Source: Oligoflexia bacterium
GTDB taxonomy: Bacteria; Bdellovibrionota; Bdellovibrionia; JABDDW01
Direction: 5' to 3'
DNA length: 64,000 nucleotides
Assembly: GCA_016715815.1 (NCBI GenBank)
Contig: JADJXN010000014.1
Coordinates: 171,767-235,766 of the forward strand
The notes under the pieces were generated by a model. That model had not been told where the DNA came from. It saw only the letters and a program-made list of their open reading frames with translations, and searched no databases. How positions within the stretch are numbered: position 1 is the first letter of the stretch; each line of letters opens with the position of its first letter. The position numbers were made by a program, and so were the translations under genes. Positions 44,913 through 62,993 of the stretch are shown here, one piece after another.

Positions 44913-45482
44913 TTGGAAGTAAAAGATTTTACAGAGAAATACTTAGAAGAAGCCCATAAGATTTTTGATATTTATAAAGGCCCTGAATTTGCCAAAGCCA
45001 TGGATTTAATGTGGCAGGCCTATAATGACAACAAACAGGTTTTTATTTTTGGCAATGGCGGATCAGCAGGCACCGCTCAGCACATGGTTAATGATCTTTC
45101 TAAAGGCACAAGCGTTGAGGGTAAAAAAAGGCTTCGTGTGATTGGTTTGGCAGATAATATGAGTTTATTAACAGCCTATGCTAATGATTGTGGGTATGAA
45201 GTAGTATTTGAGGAGCAATTAAAAAATTTATTAAACCCTGGGGATATTTGTATTGCTATTTCAGCAAGTGGGAATTCCCCAAATGTTGTTAAAGCGGTAG
45301 AGTATGCTCGTAAAAATAGCGCTAAAGTTATTGGCCTTGTTGGTTTTAGTGGTGGCAAACTAAAACCTTTAAGTGATGTTGCCATTTATTTTGAAACATA
45401 TAATTACGGAATTTGTGAAGATGCTCAGCTTATGTTTTCTCATTTAAGCTCACAATTTTTACATCAAAGAATTAAAGGTTAA
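44913..45482 (+). CDS. gmhA: SIS-domain phosphoheptose isomerase
   Basis: FGNGGSAGTAQH and ISASGNSPNV SIS motifs. Confidence 0.75.
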   Translation: MEVKDFTEKYLEEAHKIFDIYKGPEFAKAMDLMWQAYNDNKQVFIFGNGGSAGTAQHMVNDLSKGTSVEGKKRLRVIGLADNMSLLTAYANDCGYEVVFEEQLKNLLNPGDICIAISASGNSPNVVKAVEYARKNSAKVIGLVGFSGGKLKPLSDVAIYFETYNYGICEDAQLMFSHLSSQFLHQRIKG

Positions 45483-45851
45483 ATGCTTTACGGGGAAGAA
45501 ATAATTAAAAATGCCAAGCTTGAAGCCTTTGATAATAGAACAACCCATAGACGCTATTGGGTAGAGTTTGATTGCCCCGAGTTTACTTGCGTTTGTCCCA
45601 AAAGTGGGTTTCCTGATTTTGCGACGATCAAAATCCGCTACTCTCCTGATAAAAAATGTGTGGAATTAAAAAGTCTAAAACTTTATATCAATGGTTTTCG
45701 GGATAAAAAAGTATTCCACGAAGATGTAACCAACAACATTATGGATGATTTAATAATGCTCCTTGACCCTTGGGAAATTGAAGTGATTGGGGACTTTAAT
45801 GTTCGAGGGAACATTAAAACCGTTATCAAAGCGCACCACAAAAAGGGCTGA
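45483..45851 (+). CDS. queF: NADPH-dependent 7-cyano-7-deazaguanine reductase
   Basis: QueF motif EFTCVCPKSGFPDF and downstream E(S/L)K...H region. Confidence 0.85.
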   Translation: MLYGEEIIKNAKLEAFDNRTTHRRYWVEFDCPEFTCVCPKSGFPDFATIKIRYSPDKKCVELKSLKLYINGFRDKKVFHEDVTNNIMDDLIMLLDPWEIEVIGDFNVRGNIKTVIKAHHKKG

Positions 45852-45962: not shown

Positions 45963-46847
45963 ATGGGAGGAAAAATGAAAACATTTTTAATTTTAACAGT
46001 TTTACTAAGTACACAGTTAAGTTTTGCTAGCGATTGTAGCTCTCGCCGCGGTTCAAGTGGAGGGGGTGCTGTAATTGGCGGAATTATTGGTGGCATTATT
46101 GGCCATCAAATTGGCAGTGGCCGCGGAAATGACGTAGCCACAGTTGTTGGTGCCATTGGTGGGGCTATCATTGGTGGAGAACTTGGTTGTGAGATGGAAG
46201 AGCGAGAGATGCAAGAGATTTCAAGAGTACATAGAGAGTACGCTTGGAGTAATGAGCCCTACGCGCGCCGCTGGAGTACAAACCGCTTTGATGGCGAAAT
46301 TAGCTATGGCCGTCGTGGACATTATTCTTACAACCGCAACCGTTTAAACTGCCGCGAGTATACAAGTGTAGTTCGCTATTATGGCCGTACAGAAACAACT
46401 TATGGAGTTGTTTGCCAATACCCAGATGGGTCTTATAGAGATGTTGAAAGCCGTAGTGTGACTTATATTTCTGATGAGTACCCAGCTCCTAGAAAACCAA
46501 ATTATAATAGAGGCAGAAGTAGTTACCAAAGGCCATACAGAGCTGGTGTTTTAACTGAAGCAGAATTTTTTGATGTAAAAAGTAGTGTTGATCGTGAATC
46601 AAGCGATTACTATAAAGTTGAGGTAATTAAAACACGGGTGAGATACTTAAATTCCATCAATAAACAAATTACTCTGGGACAAACTGCTGTATTAGTAAGT
46701 ACAATTAGTAGCGACTATTATAAACTTCAAGCTGTAAAAGCATTAAAGCCAGTTATATTGCCAAATAGCGGTAGTTATGACGATGTTGTGAGTACAATTA
46801 GTAGCCAATACTATAGAAGTGAGGCTTTAAAAGTACTTTTAAATTAA
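45963..46847 (+). CDS. secreted glycine-zipper protein with C-terminal triple YYK repeat
   Basis: Signal peptide, GGxIGGIIGGIIG glycine zipper, three SxYYKxxAxKxL repeats. Confidence 0.6.
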   Translation: MGGKMKTFLILTVLLSTQLSFASDCSSRRGSSGGGAVIGGIIGGIIGHQIGSGRGNDVATVVGAIGGAIIGGELGCEMEEREMQEISRVHREYAWSNEPYARRWSTNRFDGEISYGRRGHYSYNRNRLNCREYTSVVRYYGRTETTYGVVCQYPDGSYRDVESRSVTYISDEYPAPRKPNYNRGRSSYQRPYRAGVLTEAEFFDVKSSVDRESSDYYKVEVIKTRVRYLNSINKQITLGQTAVLVSTISSDYYKLQAVKALKPVILPNSGSYDDVVSTISSQYYRSEALKVLLN

Positions 46848-48460
46848 ACATAAACCCAAAAGCCCTTCATGACGGTGTTTCTCTCTAAGGGGAACTCAAA
46901 ATCAAGTGGAGGGTGGGTTTTTTCAATACGAATATAGCTTAGGCCGGCATCAAGAGCGGCCTTTTCTATTTTTAAAGCTACATCAGAGCTTTCAAGGCCC
47001 TCATCATTAAAAGTAAGTAATAACCTGCCTTCTTGTTCTAAGCATAAAAAGGCATTTTTTAATAATTCTTCAATTTGCTCACTTAATTTAAAAGTGCCAT
47101 GCTTTCCTCTGGAAAATGTGGGGGGATCAATAATAATTAAATCAAATTTTCTTTTTCTGCGTACACAAGCTTGTAGGAAAAACAAACTATCAGCGGTGAA
47201 GAATTCATATTTGTCAGGGTCTAAATCATTAAGCTTAAAATTATTTTTACCCCACTCTAAAGAGCTTTGTGAGGTATCAACACTGACAACTTCAGCTGCA
47301 CCACCAAGGGCTGCACATAAGCTAAACCCGCAGGTGTAGCTAAAAAAATTGGCTACTTTTTTCCCATGTGTTGATTGCAGAATTTCTAGTCTGTGATCTC
47401 TTTGATCTAAAAATAAACCAGCACTCATGCCTTGGGCGTGGCGCATATCAAAATTTATGTCATTTTCTTTTATTTGCCACTGTAGTGGCATATTAGTTGA
47501 TGCTTGAATATTTATTTTAGTTTCTTCATTTAGGTTTTTTATATTTCCTCTTTCTTGCATTTGCCTAATAAACCAATATTTGGTGTTTGAAACGTTCATA
47601 AAAAAATCAATCAAACTTTCAGATAGGCTTTCATTGGTTTGGGAATAATTCATGATTTGTAAAACATCACCAAGTTTTTCAATGCAGAGTTTATTTTTCT
47701 CAAACCATTCACGATGCATAAGCCTATAGGAATTAGTTTTTTCAAAAAATAAAAAACGGCGGCGATCTAAGCTTATTAAAAACTGCATGGCAAGTGTGCG
47801 ATCTGCTTTATGAAGATTTAAAAATTTTTTTTCTAATTCTTGATCCATTAAAAATGCTTGCGGCAAGGGGGAATTAATTTTTGTTTTATCTATTTGAAGT
47901 TCATAAGAGTGTAACATAAGCCTTGGGTACGCAGCTCCCCCGTGAAGTGGATCACCTAAAATGGGAATGCCAGAAGCCTCAGCGTGAATTCTGATTTGAT
48001 GGGTTTTGCCGGAGTGAATTTCAGCCTCATATATAAAACCTAAAGAATTTTTGCCTATTTTAGCAAATGTGGTGTGGCTATTATTTTCCCCTTTAACTAA
48101 GCCAAATTTATGATTACCTGTTTTTTCTATGCGGCCTTCATAGGACCAAAGGTTTTGCTTAAATTCATTCTCAGAGATTAAAACATATTTCTTAACACTC
48201 TCTTTGAGCTTATTACTCCAAGGCTCAACCCCCTCAGCATTTGTGGTGCAAAGAAGACACCCTGATGTGGTGTTATCAAGCCTGTGTACGGCCCAAAGCT
48301 TTTCACCCAAAAGCTTTTCACAAACCTCTGTAAAGCCAAGCGTTGCACCACTGTCAGGCGTATGGGTAGACATGCCTGCAGGCTTGTCTAAAATAATGGC
48401 AGATTCGAAGCTGCGTAGAATCATATTTATTTTCTCTGTAATATTAGAAAGATACTGCAC
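46844..48460 (-). CDS. fusion protein: RluA-family pseudouridine synthase (N) + RlmI-like class I SAM methyltransferase (C)
   Basis: N-terminal HRLDNTTSGCLL (PUS catalytic Asp motif); C-terminal GLFLDQRDHR, SYTCGFS, IIIDPPTF. Confidence 0.75.
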   Translation of the reverse strand: MQYLSNITEKINMILRSFESAIILDKPAGMSTHTPDSGATLGFTEVCEKLLGEKLWAVHRLDNTTSGCLLCTTNAEGVEPWSNKLKESVKKYVLISENEFKQNLWSYEGRIEKTGNHKFGLVKGENNSHTTFAKIGKNSLGFIYEAEIHSGKTHQIRIHAEASGIPILGDPLHGGAAYPRLMLHSYELQIDKTKINSPLPQAFLMDQELEKKFLNLHKADRTLAMQFLISLDRRRFLFFEKTNSYRLMHREWFEKNKLCIEKLGDVLQIMNYSQTNESLSESLIDFFMNVSNTKYWFIRQMQERGNIKNLNEETKINIQASTNMPLQWQIKENDINFDMRHAQGMSAGLFLDQRDHRLEILQSTHGKKVANFFSYTCGFSLCAALGGAAEVVSVDTSQSSLEWGKNNFKLNDLDPDKYEFFTADSLFFLQACVRRKRKFDLIIIDPPTFSRGKHGTFKLSEQIEELLKNAFLCLEQEGRLLLTFNDEGLESSDVALKIEKAALDAGLSYIRIEKTHPPLDFEFPLERNTVMKGFWVYV

Positions 48461-48671: not shown

Positions 48672-49151
48672 ATGACCAAAAAGCAAATCCAAGATAATAA
48701 AGAGTTAGTATTTCAAAAAGTAGGCATTTTTGTTGATGCTGAAAATATTGAAACCTCAGGACTAAAACACCACGGCGGAAGAACTGATTATAAAAAAATT
48801 CTTGAAAACGTTGGTGATAGAGAAATTTTAAGAATTATTTATTACAAGCCTGAGTTTAAAGAAATGTCTGAGGATTTTATTTCCTTTTGGAAAAGCCTAG
48901 GTGGGGAGATTAAGCGCCCAGCTAAAAATGCAGATTGCTTTTTAATTATTGATGCAGTCACCATGGCAGAAAAGCTAGATGTAGCTATAATTTTAGGTGG
49001 TGATAAAGACTACATGCCTTTAATTTGGTATTTAAAATCCAGAGGCTGCCGTGTGGAGATTTGGTCTTGGCCAGAAGCTACAAGCCAAGACATGAAAGAA
49101 GCTGCTGATATTTTTATTCCGTTAAATAAATCATTTATTTTTGCTAGATAA
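48672..49151 (+). CDS. NYN/LabA-like domain protein (PIN-like predicted RNase)
   Basis: VGIFVDAENI ... LIIDAVTMAEK ... ILGGDKDYMPL acidic motif pattern of NYN domains. Confidence 0.7.
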   Translation: MTKKQIQDNKELVFQKVGIFVDAENIETSGLKHHGGRTDYKKILENVGDREILRIIYYKPEFKEMSEDFISFWKSLGGEIKRPAKNADCFLIIDAVTMAEKLDVAIILGGDKDYMPLIWYLKSRGCRVEIWSWPEATSQDMKEAADIFIPLNKSFIFAR

Positions 49152-49529: not shown

Positions 49530-49606
49530 GCGGCAGTAGCTCAATTGGATAGAGCATCAGACTTCGGATCTGAGGGTTGAGGGTTCAAGTCCTTCCTGCC
49601 GCGCCA
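49530..49606 (+). tRNA. tRNA-Arg, anticodon TCG, with encoded CCA
   Basis: Hand-folded cloverleaf: acceptor GCGGCAG/CTGCCGC, D-stem GCTC/GAGC, anticodon stem TCAGA/TCTGA, loop CTTCGGA, T-loop TTCAAGT, discriminator G, CCA. Confidence 0.9.
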
Positions 49607-50020
49607 ATCAATAAGCCCTTTATAAGCTTGGTTTAGCTCATCCAAAGTCATTATAGAAAGTTTTGAATTTTTAAAGCATGTAATACCAAAAAGTTTTTTT
49701 GAATCTGTCATTTCTAAGTGGTGAGCGTTAATTTCGTAATGCTCCATGAGTTGTAAAACATAAACATCAGATTCTAATTTTTGACTTGGAATGTAAAATG
49801 AGCACACAATCTTTCTTCTAGCAACAGCTAGATCTGCATCAAATCCGGGGCTTTGTTTAACCCCATTTATAATCCAGCCTTTTTCAGCAGAAACGCTTTC
49901 TAGTACTTCTTTATTTAAAATTTTTGCGTAAAGCTCGCCTCTTTTAACTTGGGTAAGAGGTAAACTGTCTAATGCAAGTGAATGCTGAGCTACCAATAAA
50001 AGAATAATTAAAATTTTCAT
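49541..50020 (-). CDS. secreted hypothetical protein; last 22 codons are antisense to the tRNA
   Basis: ORF with signal peptide; C-terminal tail WRGRKDLNPQPSDPKSDALSN is the reverse complement of the tRNA. Confidence 0.45.
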   Translation of the reverse strand: MKILIILLLVAQHSLALDSLPLTQVKRGELYAKILNKEVLESVSAEKGWIINGVKQSPGFDADLAVARRKIVCSFYIPSQKLESDVYVLQLMEHYEINAHHLEMTDSKKLFGITCFKNSKLSIMTLDELNQAYKGLIDWRGRKDLNPQPSDPKSDALSN

Positions 50021-61841: not shown

Positions 61842-62314
61842 AAGTGGAAAATTTTTTAAAATCAAAAATTATTACCCCCCTTGTTTTACAATTAAGACAA
61901 GGTGTGACGCTTAAGAAGCTTTCTTTAAGTTTTGCGTTGGGGGCTACTATTGGAATAATTCCCATATTAGGACCTGCTACACCACTTTGTATTTTGGTGG
62001 GTTTGTTGTTTAAACTAAATCATGTTGCATTACAAGTGGGTAACTATGCTGTTTATGGTTTTCAAATAATTGGAATACCGTTTTTTTTAAAATTTGGAGA
62101 TATTTTATTTAACAAGCCGCCATTTTCTTTAAGCCCAAGCCAAATTAAATCAGAGATAGAAATTTTAGGAGTATTGGATTTTATGCAAAAATTTGCGACT
62201 TCAATTTTGCATGGTAGTTTTTTATGGCTTATGCTGAGCCCTATTTTTATTAGTGCATTTTATTTTATTGCTTATTTTTTAATTAAAAAATGGGGATTTA
62301 AAATTGAGAATTAA
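61805..62314 (+). CDS. hypothetical small membrane protein
   Basis: ORF with several hydrophobic helices; 5' end overlaps upstream gene. Confidence 0.5.
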   Translation: MPLLDNYFLPKIKVENFLKSKIITPLVLQLRQGVTLKKLSLSFALGATIGIIPILGPATPLCILVGLLFKLNHVALQVGNYAVYGFQIIGIPFFLKFGDILFNKPPFSLSPSQIKSEIEILGVLDFMQKFATSILHGSFLWLMLSPIFISAFYFIAYFLIKKWGFKIEN

Positions 62315-62993
62315 TAAATTTCTAACTGAGTCAGGTTTTTGTTCAAGGCGCCAAGCGGATAAACTTATTACTGAGAAACAAGTTAAAATAAATAATAATG
62401 TAGCCTCTCTTGGGGATCAGGTTGGGGAGGGGGATCAAGTTTTTGTTAATGGAAAGCTTGTTGAAAATAAAAACAAAAGAATTTATATTATGTATAACAA
62501 GCCCCGCGGTATTGTGTGCACTACAGATACCAACGAGAAAGACAATATTATTGATGCAATAAAATTTAGGCAAAGAATATTCCCCATTGGCAGGCTAGAT
62601 AAGGACTCTACAGGGCTCATTTTTTTGACCAATGACGGAAATATTGTTAATAAAATTCTACGAGCAGAAAATGGCCATGAAAAGGAGTATTGGGTAAATG
62701 TAGATAAACCCTTTGATGAAGACTTTTTAAAAATAATGTCTCAAGGAGTAGACATTGGTGGCTACATTACTAAGCCCTGCAAACTTAAAAGAGTAAATAA
62801 AAGCACATTTTTAATTACACTCACTGAAGGTAAGAATCGGCAAATTAGGAGAATGTGCGAAAGTTTAAATTACAAAGTACGCCACTTAAAACGCTTGCGC
62901 ATTATGAATGTGTTACTGGGAGATCTTAAAGAAGGTAGGTGGAAAGAAATAGAACCAAAGGATTTAAAAAAAATTTTTGAGTTAGTAAATTAG
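62304..62993 (+). CDS. RsuA/RluF-type pseudouridine synthase with S4 domain
   Basis: S4 N-terminus INKFLTESGFCSRRQADKLI; catalytic motif PIGRLDKDSTGLIFLTNDG. Confidence 0.85.
   Translation: MRINKFLTESGFCSRRQADKLITEKQVKINNNVASLGDQVGEGDQVFVNGKLVENKNKRIYIMYNKPRGIVCTTDTNEKDNIIDAIKFRQRIFPIGRLDKDSTGLIFLTNDGNIVNKILRAENGHEKEYWVNVDKPFDEDFLKIMSQGVDIGGYITKPCKLKRVNKSTFLITLTEGKNRQIRRMCESLNYKVRHLKRLRIMNVLLGDLKEGRWKEIEPKDLKKIFELVN

What the first reader, a model, noticed from the sequence alone, without database searches (positions are those of the whole stretch)
46844..48460. Single polypeptide fusing an RluA-type pseudouridine synthase to an RlmI-like m5C methyltransferase
The N-terminal ~220 aa carry the pseudouridine synthase catalytic motif HRLDNTTSGCLL; the C-terminal ~300 aa carry class I SAM methyltransferase motifs characteristic of RlmI-type rRNA methyltransferases (GLFLDQRDHR, IIIDPPTF). 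These activities are normally separate enzymes, so a fusion implies coordinated dual modification of one RNA target. No frameshift is needed; it is one continuous ORF.
Basis: partly seen in the sequence, partly recalled or inferred. Interest (0 to 1): 0.5.

Follow-up and report, generated by a model that had tools for sequence, protein, structure and literature searches.

The report
Fused pseudouridine synthase / RNA methyltransferase gene
One real, conserved gene joins a pseudouridine synthase to an RlmI-family RNA methyltransferase, but the methyltransferase lacks the cysteine needed to make m5C and carries the signature of the m7G-making relatives RlmQ and RlmK, so it is an uncharacterised two-activity RNA-modifying enzyme built on the same plan as E. 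coli RlmKL.

Summary
Window 46844..48460 (-) is one uninterrupted ORF with an RluA-family pseudouridine synthase domain (Pfam E 4.9e-19) followed by a COG1092/PF10672 methyltransferase (E 8.8e-30). The likely start is the ATG at 48424 (526 aa).

It is not an assembly artefact. The best ~120 database hits are almost all the same fusion, 474 cluster representatives match at E<=1e-30, and an independent assembly encodes the identical protein. The pairing occurs fused in Bdellovibrionota, Verrucomicrobiota (including Akkermansia), Planctomycetota and Myxococcota, and as adjacent genes in Vibrio and Photobacterium.

The "RlmI-like m5C" reading is not supported. RlmI's catalytic Cys (FSCSG) is Asn here (TFNDEG), kept in 114 of 118 family members. 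Its covarying His and Lys are also absent, and the PUA domain is missing. The Asn + Phe signature matches RlmQ (m7G2574) and RlmK (m7G2069).

The synthase half keeps its catalytic Asp in 117 of 118 members and occupies the place of the PUA domain.

Best reading: a bifunctional enzyme, probably acting on 23S rRNA, that makes one pseudouridine and probably one m7G at nearby sites. The target is unknown; G2574/U2580 in helix 90 is only a weak guess. No paper describing the fusion was found. Moderately interesting: a new variant of a known kind.

The parts
46844..48424 (-). Whole gene as best supported: ATG start at 48424, 526 aa, TAA stop at 46844..46846. The longest ORF extends to a GTG at 48460 (538 aa).
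   Evidence: ORF list. The identical 526-aa protein is P0001 in NCBI and in an independent Logan assembly. Most homologues start at the equivalent 'MIL'.
47843..48424 (-). N-terminal RluA-family pseudouridine synthase catalytic domain (aa 13-206 of the 538-aa ORF). It has no S4 domain.
   Evidence: Pfam PF00849 E 4.9e-19. TIGR01621 84.5 bits and TIGR00005 76.5 bits. Family profile against PDB: RluC 121 bits, RPUSD4 102, RluD 84, RluA 82. Foldseek: RluC 7e-15, RluA 7e-14.
48275..48277 (-). Codon of Asp62, the predicted catalytic aspartate of the synthase (HRLD motif).
   Evidence: Kept in 117 of 118 family members, along with K90, Y92, the GKxHQIRxH motif and L183-H184. Codon verified.
47762..47842 (-). 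Helical linker between the synthase domain and the EEHEE domain (aa 207-233).
   Evidence: AlphaFold2 model, helices 195-202 and 206-221 in 526-aa numbering, pLDDT about 92-94.
47426..47761 (-). EEHEE RNA-recognition domain plus beta-hairpin of COG1092 enzymes (aa 234-345). It follows the linker directly, where RlmI and RlmQ carry a PUA domain.
   Evidence: Alignments to SMU.776, RlmQ and RlmI begin at chain residues about 78-89, just after their PUA domains. No PUA hit in Pfam.
46847..47425 (-). Rossmann-fold SAM methyltransferase domain (aa 346-538) with motif I NFFSYTCGFS, motif II VVSVD395TS and motif IV IIIDPPTF.
   Evidence: PF10672 E 8.8e-30. Motif conservation. The motif II Asp corresponds to RlmK D568, which is required for m7G2069 (PMC3351187).
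47006..47008 (-). Codon of Asn485, at the column where RlmI has its catalytic Cys. RlmQ and RlmK also have Asn here.
   Evidence: PMC10870370.
46892..46906 (-). LDFEF motif. Its Phe lies at the column that is His (DHP) in every Cys-type RlmI-like sequence and Phe in RlmQ and RlmK.
   Evidence: 15 of 15 Cys-type sequences have His; 70 of 75 Asn-type sequences have Phe or Tyr.

Best explanation
The gene encodes a bifunctional RNA-modifying enzyme.

The N-terminal half is an active RluA-family pseudouridine synthase, with Asp62 as the catalytic residue.

The C-terminal half is an EEHEE + Rossmann methyltransferase of the COG1092 family. It belongs to the cysteine-less, Asn/Phe-type branch rather than the RlmI m5C branch, so it most likely methylates N7 of a guanine, as RlmQ and RlmK do.

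The synthase domain sits exactly where stand-alone RlmI and RlmQ carry their PUA RNA-binding domain. By analogy with RlmKL, the two halves probably bind neighbouring parts of one RNA and help position each other. That RNA is most likely naked or early-assembly 23S rRNA near the peptidyl-transferase centre, and the product would be one pseudouridine and one methylated base close together.

What is shown: the single ORF, both domains, the conservation of the fusion, the intact synthase and SAM-binding motifs, and the absence of the Cys/His/Lys triad.

What is inferred: m7G chemistry, 23S rRNA as substrate, and mutual targeting. The specific site is a weak guess; G2574 with U2580 in helix 90 is one candidate.
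For: Domains and fold; AlphaFold2 pLDDT 93.2, pTM 0.89; Foldseek top hits RlmQ 3vse 2.9e-24 and SMU.776, and for the synthase half RluC and RluA.

Real and conserved: the best ~120 hits carry both Pfam domains down to about 30% identity, apart from three fragments. There are 474 cluster representatives (50% identity level) at E<=1e-30, and most of the top 150 are ~500-570 aa proteins matched in one stretch across both halves. An independent Logan assembly encodes the identical protein.

Fused and split forms: single-ORF fusions occur in Bdellovibrionota, Verrucomicrobiota including Akkermansia, Phycisphaerae and Polyangiaceae. Adjacent synthase-then-methyltransferase genes occur in Vibrio and Photobacterium. 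The Vibrio synthase is a true TIGR01621 member, 323 bits against a cutoff of 222.

Both halves look active: Asp62 is kept in 117 of 118, and the SAM motifs are conserved, including the Asp equivalent to RlmK D568.

Not m5C: Asn485 replaces the Cys in 114 of 118. Cys, His and Lys covary perfectly in 15 Cys-type sequences and are absent from all 75 Asn-type sequences, a group that includes RlmQ and RlmK. The family profile scores SMU.776 at 227 bits and RlmQ at 201, above RlmI at 167. The RlmI clade excludes the fusions with 89% bootstrap support. A Verrucomicrobia locus (L009) carries the fusion and a separate Cys-type COG1092 gene.

Targeting role of the synthase domain: the PUA domain is absent. 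Phycisphaerae fusions keep the domain after losing its catalytic Asp. [quoted passage not shown]

Naked rRNA as substrate of relatives: RlmQ (PMC10798245) and RlmI (PMC2836557).
Against: No biochemical or genetic data exist for any member.

Asn-type does not prove m7G. COG1092 has several uncharacterised branches, and the deep nodes of my NJ tree are unresolved, so the fusions are not shown to be sister to RlmQ or RlmK.

COG1092 targets are scattered (C1962, C1942, G2069, G2574 and, from memory, C2499), so homology does not predict the site.

The synthase subfamily is unresolved. HMM scores are RluC 122, TruC 100, RluD 86 and RluA 84, and the tree has low support, so a tRNA target cannot be excluded.

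I could not obtain model coordinates, so the relative geometry of the two active sites was not examined.
Confidence: 0.6

Rival explanations
1. One reading: an RluA-type pseudouridine synthase fused to a true RlmI-type m5C methyltransferase (for example making m5C1962) that uses a cysteine nucleophile.
For: E. coli RlmI is the best single-sequence PDB hit (3c0k, 1.8e-30). Several sources annotate homologues as '23S rRNA (cytosine1962-C5)-methyltransferase'. About 25 family members have a Cys one residue before the Asn, and 8 have one two residues before it.
Against: The catalytic Cys column is Asn in 114 of 118. The covarying His and Lys are absent. The score is 116 bits against the RlmI cutoff of 712. 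There is no PUA domain. The family lies outside the Cys-type clade. The same annotation was shown to be wrong for S. aureus RlmQ (PMC10870370). RlmQ itself has a Cys two residues before the Asn (CTNAS) and still makes m7G, not m5C.
Confidence: 0.05
2. Sequential action on one nucleotide: the synthase makes a pseudouridine and the methyltransferase then methylates that same base (m1-pseudouridine, which is isosteric with m5U, or m3-pseudouridine). This would parallel RluD followed by RlmH, or archaeal Pus10 followed by TrmY.
For: A fusion, or a tight operon, is a natural arrangement for a two-step pathway. COG1092 is related to C5-pyrimidine methyltransferases (PMC2836557), and N-methylation of pseudouridine would not need the Cys nucleophile that is missing here. 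This is inference from chemistry, not a test.
Against: The two characterised Asn/Phe-type relatives both methylate guanine N7. Many close Asn-type relatives are stand-alone with no synthase gene within 6 kb. Phycisphaerae fusions keep the methyltransferase after losing the synthase Asp, so the methyltransferase does not depend on a pseudouridine made in cis.
Confidence: 0.1
3. The substrate is tRNA or another small RNA rather than 23S rRNA, for example an RluA/TruC-type tRNA pseudouridine plus a tRNA methylation.
For: The synthase half is of the minimal S4-less type, like RluA, TruC and TIGR01621. E. coli TruC scores 100 bits against RluC's 122. RluA and RPUSD4 act on tRNA as well as rRNA (PMC10798245, PMC7600485).
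Against: Every characterised COG1092 enzyme acts on 23S rRNA. The EEHEE domain and hairpin are kept.
Confidence: 0.15
4. One half is a catalytically dead module that serves only as an RNA-binding or assembly-factor domain, so the protein has a single activity.
For: This has happened in Phycisphaerae relatives, where the synthase Asp became Gly or Ser and the KxY Lys became Gln. RsmC-type enzymes with non-catalytic domains are a precedent cited in PMC3351187.
Against: In the window protein and 117 of 118 members of its family the synthase Asp is intact, and the other conserved synthase motifs are equally well conserved. All SAM-binding motifs are also intact.
Confidence: 0.05
5. Assembly chimera or hidden frameshift joining two separate genes.
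For: The window comes from a metagenome-assembled genome (P0001 is named 'MAG: Oligoflexia bacterium'). A few relatives are split or frameshifted (L020, L025, L040).
Against: Hundreds of independent fused homologues exist across phyla. An unrelated sequencing run yields the identical protein. The AlphaFold2 model is confident and continuous through the junction. There is no composition break at the junction beyond ordinary variation.
Confidence: 0.01

Closest known systems
E. coli RlmKL (YcbY): RlmL m2G2445 enzyme fused to RlmK m7G2069 enzyme
   Same: A PUA-less COG1092 (EEHEE + Rossmann) methyltransferase with Asn at the RlmI-Cys column and Phe in 'DF', placed C-terminal to another rRNA-modifying enzyme. 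The same pair also exists as separate genes in other lineages. The fused partner is thought to guide the COG1092 domain to a neighbouring nucleotide (PMC3367195, PMC3351187).
   Different: Here the N-terminal partner is a pseudouridine synthase, not a THUMP + COG0116 methyltransferase. The window protein scores 137 bits against the RlmKL cutoff of 466 and does not group with RlmK in the tree.
RlmQ (B. subtilis YwbD, S. aureus SAV1081, S. mutans SMU.776): 23S m7G2574
   Same: It is the best profile and fold match to the methyltransferase half (227 and 201 bits; Foldseek 2.9e-24). It shares the Asn for Cys and Phe for His substitutions.
   Different: RlmQ has an N-terminal PUA domain and is a stand-alone enzyme. 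At the Lys/Met column RlmQ has Met, while the fusion has Ser. The fusions are not inside the Firmicute RlmQ clade.
E. coli RlmI (YccW): 23S m5C1962
   Same: Same Pfam family (PF10672), EEHEE + Rossmann architecture and SAM-binding motifs.
   Different: RlmI has a PUA domain, the catalytic Cys (FSCSG) and the covarying His and Lys. All four are absent here.
RluA-family pseudouridine synthases (RluC, RluA, TruC, RluD; human RPUSD4)
   Same: PF00849 fold, the HRLD catalytic Asp, and the KxY and HQIR motifs.
   Different: There is no S4 domain, unlike RluC and RluD. The protein is below every equivalog cutoff, and the subfamily is unresolved.
TIGR01621 'RluA-like' synthase plus the adjacent short COG1092 methyltransferase in Vibrionaceae
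   Same: The same two activities in the same order, with an Asn-type PUA-less methyltransferase. In Vibrio sp. F74 the two ORFs are in the same frame, separated by one stop codon and one further codon.
   Different: They are two polypeptides. The methyltransferase groups with the short Pseudomonas forms rather than with the Bdellovibrionota fusions. The window protein itself scores only 84.5 bits against the TIGR01621 cutoff of 222. Common origin versus independent pairing is unresolved.

Membership tests
Pfam PF00849 / RluA-family pseudouridine synthases | Domain match above the gathering score | tested here: met
   69.5 bits against 26.8
Pfam PF00849 / RluA-family pseudouridine synthases | Catalytic Asp in the HRLD motif, plus the KxY and HQIR motifs | tested here: met
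   D62 is kept in 117 of 118, K90 in 117 of 118, Y92 in 118 of 118, and Q155 and R157 in 118 of 118
Pfam PF00849 / RluA-family pseudouridine synthases | NCBIfam TIGR00005 (rluA subfamily) or any equivalog (RluA, RluC, RluD, TruC, TIGR01621) above its cutoff | tested here: not met
   TIGR00005 76.5 against 192.7; TIGR01621 84.5 against 222.3; RluC 39.5 against 378
Pfam PF00849 / RluA-family pseudouridine synthases | U-to-pseudouridine isomerase activity on a defined RNA site | not testable with these tools
   Needs CMC or bisulfite mapping, or LC-MS, of wild type against mutant
COG1092 / Pfam PF10672 RNA methyltransferases | Domain match above gathering; EEHEE + Rossmann fold; SAM motifs I, II and IV | tested here: met
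   104.4 bits against 27. Foldseek hits to RlmQ, RlmI, RlmO and RlmKL. Motifs conserved.
RlmI (23S m5C1962 methyltransferase) | Catalytic Cys in the SCS motif (motif VI) | tested here: not met
   Asn485 lies at that column in 114 of 118
RlmI (23S m5C1962 methyltransferase) | His (DHP) and Lys (GHKTG) that covary with the Cys | tested here: not met
   Phe and Ser here. 15 of 15 Cys-type sequences have His and Lys.
RlmI (23S m5C1962 methyltransferase) | N-terminal PUA domain | tested here: not met
   No PUA hit. Alignments to RlmI and RlmQ start after their PUA domains.
RlmI (23S m5C1962 methyltransferase) | NCBIfam equivalog cutoff | tested here: not met
   115.9 against 712
RlmQ (23S m7G2574 methyltransferase) | Asn in place of the Cys, with the partner Phe | tested here: met
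   N485 and F521; signature as described in PMC10870370
RlmQ (23S m7G2574 methyltransferase) | PUA + EEHEE + methyltransferase architecture, stand-alone | tested here: not met
   The PUA domain is replaced by the synthase domain
RlmQ (23S m7G2574 methyltransferase) | Phylogenetic placement with the characterised RlmQ enzymes | tested here: inconclusive
   Best profile score, but the NJ tree does not place the fusions in the RlmQ clade and the deep nodes are unsupported
RlmQ (23S m7G2574 methyltransferase) | m7G formation at G2574 | not testable with these tools
   Needs NaBH4/aniline cleavage or LC-MS mapping
RlmK (23S m7G2069, C-terminal half of RlmKL) | PUA-less COG1092 domain with Asn, fused C-terminal to another rRNA-modifying enzyme | tested here: met
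   PMC3367195
RlmK (23S m7G2069, C-terminal half of RlmKL) | NCBIfam equivalog cutoff / THUMP + COG0116 partner | tested here: not met
   137.2 against 466, matching only model positions 501-664. The partner is a pseudouridine synthase.

The most novel reading that the evidence does not exclude
The two halves act in sequence on one nucleotide. The synthase converts a uridine to pseudouridine, and the cysteine-less descendant of a C5-pyrimidine methyltransferase then methylates that pseudouridine, for example at N1, giving m1-pseudouridine, which is isosteric with m5U. As far as I know, that modification and pathway have not been described in bacterial RNA. A milder version is a previously unmapped pseudouridine/m7G pair in the peptidyl-transferase region of 23S rRNA (for example U2580 and G2574 in helix 90), installed by one enzyme in Bdellovibrionota, Verrucomicrobiota and Vibrionaceae.
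Probability: 0.1. Interest if true: 0.75.

Novelty: new variant of a known kind. Interest (0 to 1): 0.42.

Why it matters
Fused enzymes are natural pointers to RNA modifications that are installed together. This family is large: hundreds of clusters across several phyla, including the gut bacterium Akkermansia, predatory Bdellovibrio relatives, and Vibrio and Photobacterium species in split form. It has no assigned target, and automated annotation often labels it as the m5C1962 enzyme RlmI, which the sequence evidence here contradicts.

Working out its sites would add a new pseudouridine/methyl pair to bacterial rRNA (or tRNA) modification maps. It would give a second natural example, after RlmKL, of a COG1092 methyltransferase guided by a fused partner. 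It would also test whether Asn/Phe against Cys/His/Lys is a general predictor of m7G against m5C chemistry in this family.

The Phycisphaerae members, which have a dead synthase domain, offer a natural experiment on the targeting role of that domain.

Tried and rejected
- Assembly chimera or frameshift: rejected.
- RlmI/m5C assignment: rejected on the catalytic Cys, the covarying residues, the PUA domain, the equivalog score and the tree.
- Placing the methyltransferase half by an NJ tree with 100 bootstraps: only shallow clades were supported, so whether the fusion arose once or several times, and whether it is sister to RlmQ or RlmK, could not be settled. A first attempt with Biopython's BLOSUM distance and bootstrap timed out.
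- Assigning the synthase half to RluC: HMM and PDB scores favour RluC, but TruC is close and the tree is unresolved, so RluC orthology is not claimed.
- Operon context: none. The gene is flanked by a convergent glycine-zipper/DUF4476 gene and a divergent NYN-domain gene. Promoter and terminator scans were at chance level.
- Literature searches for a described synthase-COG1092 fusion found nothing. Sunita et al. 2008 and Kita et al. 2013, which define the five COG1092 groups, are not in the library, so I cannot exclude that they mention this architecture.
- The Foldseek search of AFDB50 was unavailable.
- Model coordinates are not exposed, so the distance and orientation between the two active sites could not be measured.
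- Whole-genome presence or absence of rluC, rlmQ, rlmK and rlmI in fusion-bearing genomes could not be checked, because only 64 kb of this genome and +/-6 kb of the related loci were available.
Full report
**1. The observation**

Window 46844..48460 (minus strand) is one uninterrupted ORF of 538 codons from a GTG, ending in TAA.

Pfam finds PseudoU_synth_2 (PF00849) at aa 22-162 (E 4.9e-19, 69.5 bits, cutoff 26.8). It finds Methyltrans_SAM (PF10672, the RlmI/COG1092 family) at aa 250-495 (E 8.8e-30, 104.4 bits, cutoff 27). No PUA or S4 domain is detected.

Most homologues, and the NCBI gene call for the identical protein (P0001, 526 aa, 'MAG: Oligoflexia bacterium'), begin at the Met that is residue 13 of the long ORF. 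The likely start is therefore the ATG at 48424.

**2. It is a real gene, not an artefact**

- The best ~120 clusters in a 5.8-billion-protein search carry both Pfam domains at about 500-570 aa, apart from three fragments, with identity falling to about 30%.
- An exhaustive HMMER scan of 1.84 billion cluster representatives finds 474 at E<=1e-30. Most of the best 150 are ~500-570 aa proteins matched in one stretch across both halves.
- An unrelated sequencing run (Logan assembly, SRR34646274) encodes the identical 526-aa protein.
- An AlphaFold2 model built on a 79-sequence alignment is confident throughout (mean pLDDT 93.2, pTM 0.89). It shows a synthase domain, two linker helices, an EEHEE domain and a Rossmann domain.

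**3. Distribution: fused, split and stand-alone forms**

A scan of one genome per GTDB species, followed by ORF analysis, gave three forms.

- Fused. Single-ORF fusions occur in Bdellovibrionota (L002-L007), Verrucomicrobiota (L008-L011, L015, L024, L052; L010 is an Akkermansia muciniphila MAG), Phycisphaerae (L012), Polyangiaceae (L014) and others.
- Split. In Vibrio (L020, L059) and Photobacterium (L044, L070) the same two activities are separate, adjacent, co-oriented genes, synthase first and then a ~310-aa PUA-less methyltransferase. A Pseudomonadota MAG (L025) and an Omnitrophota MAG (L021) show the same order, but there the two ORFs overlap in different frames, so a frameshifted fusion cannot be excluded. 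In Vibrio sp. F74 the two ORFs are in the same frame, separated by one stop codon and one further codon.
- Stand-alone. Many close relatives (Pseudomonas, Planctomycetota, some Verrucomicrobiota) are short PUA-less methyltransferases with no synthase gene within 6 kb.

The Vibrio synthase is a true member of NCBIfam TIGR01621, the 'RluA-like' hypothetical equivalog (323 bits, cutoff 222). The pairing of a pseudouridine synthase with this kind of methyltransferase therefore recurs both as a fusion and as an operon, which is the classic signature of a functional link.

**4. The methyltransferase half is not an m5C enzyme of the RlmI type**

The literature places RlmI's catalytic Cys in the motif (F)SCS(G) (PMC2836557; PMC10870370). 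Its paralogue RlmQ has Asn there (CTNAS) and was shown experimentally to make m7G2574 (m7G2601 in S. aureus numbering) rather than m5C (PMC10870370; PMC10798245). E. coli RlmK, the C-terminal half of RlmKL that makes m7G2069, reads FSNNK.

The window protein reads TFNDEG. In an alignment of 118 fusion proteins with RlmI and RlmK, Asn485 sits in the Cys column and is kept in 114 of 118.

I also aligned 90 sequences covering fused, split, short and PUA-bearing relatives together with RlmI, RlmK, RlmQ and SMU.776.

- All 15 Cys-type sequences also have His (DHP) and Lys (GHKTG).
- All 75 Asn-type sequences lack both. 70 of them have Phe or Tyr (DF) at the His column.
- The Asn-type group includes every fused, split and short form, plus RlmQ and RlmK.

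This appears to match 'cluster 1' (Cys/Asn with His/Phe) and the Lys/Met pair of 'cluster 2' in the RlmQ paper. I could not see its figure and identified the columns from my own alignment.

Further points against RlmI membership:

- The score is 116 bits against the equivalog cutoff of 712.
- The family profile scores SMU.776 at 226.6 bits and RlmQ/SAV1081 at 200.8, above RlmI at 166.6 and RlmKL at 155.8.
- Foldseek ranks RlmQ and SMU.776 first.
- The Cys-type RlmI clade excludes the fusions with 89% bootstrap support.
- One Verrucomicrobia locus (L009) carries both the fusion and a separate Cys-type COG1092 gene. My script mislabelled that gene 'L009_Verruco_SPLIT'.

The SAM-binding motifs are intact. 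They include the motif II Asp (D395, kept in 117 of 118), which corresponds to RlmK D568, a residue whose mutation abolishes m7G2069 (PMC3351187).

I conclude that the methyltransferase is active, that it cannot use the Cys-dependent C5-pyrimidine mechanism, and that it most probably methylates guanine N7. The last step is an inference from two characterised relatives. The deep branches of my tree are unresolved, and COG1092 contains uncharacterised branches (PMC10798245).

**5. The synthase half**

The catalytic Asp62 (HRLD) is kept in 117 of 118. K90, Y92, the G-K/R-x-H-Q-I-R-x-H motif and L183-H184 are equally conserved, so the domain looks active.

It is the minimal catalytic domain, without S4. 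Family-profile scores against solved structures are RluC 121, RPUSD4 102, RluD 84 and RluA 82 bits. Against the E. coli proteins the domain HMM gives RluC 122, TruC 100, RluD 86 and RluA 84. The synthase-domain tree is unresolved. 'RluA family' is safe; RluC orthology is not shown.

**6. How it probably works**

The alignments to RlmI, RlmQ and SMU.776 begin just after their ~70-residue PUA domains. The synthase domain plus a helical linker therefore occupies exactly the place of the PUA RNA-binding domain.

The closest precedent is RlmKL. There, a PUA-less COG1092 domain is fused downstream of another rRNA enzyme, the two modify G2445 and G2069 on opposite strands of helix 74, and the authors proposed that the partner guides the COG1092 domain (PMC3367195; PMC3351187).

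Two Phycisphaerae relatives (L012, L017) keep the N-terminal synthase-like domain although its catalytic Asp has become Gly or Ser and the KxY Lys has become Gln. The domain is evidently worth keeping without catalysis, which fits a targeting or binding role.

RlmQ and RlmI both prefer naked rRNA over assembled subunits, which suggests action early in assembly.

I therefore propose a bifunctional enzyme that installs one pseudouridine and one (probably N7-guanine) methyl group at nearby sites of one RNA, most likely 23S rRNA, with each half helping to position the other.

A specific but weak guess follows from the nearest relatives. For the methyltransferase half these are the RlmQ enzymes, which target G2574. 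For the synthase half they are RluC and RPUSD4, which both make the U2580-equivalent pseudouridine (PMC7600485). The two positions are six nucleotides apart; helix 90 is stated in the sources for G2574, and for U2580 I place it there from memory. I give this site about 20%.

**7. Comparison with what is known, and novelty**

Both domain families are well known, and fused rRNA-modifying enzymes are known (RlmKL).

I found no paper describing a pseudouridine synthase-COG1092 fusion. Two papers that classify COG1092 are not in the library.

Databases annotate members generically, as 'class I SAM-dependent methyltransferase' or 'pseudouridine synthase', or, probably wrongly, as '23S rRNA (cytosine1962-C5)-methyltransferase'.

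I rate it a new variant of a known kind: a new, widespread but uncharacterised domain architecture built on the RlmKL design principle.

**8. Context**

The gene has no operon partners. A glycine-zipper/DUF4476 gene converges on it, overlapping by 4 nt, and a NYN-domain gene diverges from it. No other COG1092 gene lies in the window. An RluF/RsuA-type synthase lies at 62304..62993.

**9. Verdict**

Interest is moderate.

Noticed in passing
L012 6001-7554 and L017 5407-7170 (Phycisphaerae MAGs): Relatives of the fusion keep an N-terminal synthase-like domain whose catalytic Asp is replaced (NRLG.. and NRLS..) and whose KxY Lys is Gln. This looks like a pseudo-enzyme domain retained in front of an intact Asn-type methyltransferase.
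   Followed up: partly
L020 5965-7605 (Vibrio sp. F74): The TIGR01621 synthase ORF and the methyltransferase ORF are in the same reading frame, separated only by a TAG stop and one codon (TAG ATT ATG). It is one point mutation away from a fusion.
   Followed up: partly
L044 2511-2967 and L070 6651-7361 (Photobacterium): A 450-700 bp spacer lies between the synthase and methyltransferase genes and contains a small, very basic ORF (MRRSRFASLRLHEKKK... in L044) whose function is unknown.
   Followed up: no
L009 736-1995 (-) and 5908-7557 (+) (Verrucomicrobia MAG): A separate Cys-type (RlmI-like, GSCSAH) COG1092 gene lies about 4 kb from the Asn-type fusion in the same genome, so the two types coexist.
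   Followed up: partly
window 62304..62993 (+): A second pseudouridine synthase gene of the RsuA/RluF type (NCBIfam RluF 289.6 bits, just under the cutoff of 318; TIGR00093 160 bits, above its cutoff).
   Followed up: partly
window 49530..49606 (+): tRNA-Arg(TCG). The listed ORF 49541..50020 (-) overlaps it antisense at its C-terminal end (the '...RKDLNPQPSDPKSDALSN' tail), so that part of the ORF is probably not coding.
   Followed up: partly
window 44913..45851 (+): A SIS-domain protein is followed directly, with no intergenic gap, by a short unimodular QueF (preQ0 reductase, queuosine pathway). This is another RNA-modification-related gene about 1 kb from the fusion, but on the opposite strand.
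   Followed up: partly
window 45963..46847 (+): A predicted secreted or lipoprotein-like protein with a glycine-zipper (Rick_17kDa_Anti) domain and a DUF4476 domain. Its last 4 nt overlap the stop region of the convergent fusion gene.
   Followed up: partly
window 48672..49151 (+): A NYN-domain (predicted RNase) protein is transcribed divergently from the fusion gene across a ~250 bp intergenic region.
   Followed up: no
L040 5962-7624 (Verrucomicrobiae MAG): The fusion homologue is broken into two overlapping ORFs in different frames (377 aa and 196 aa). This is probably a frameshift error or a pseudogene.
   Followed up: no
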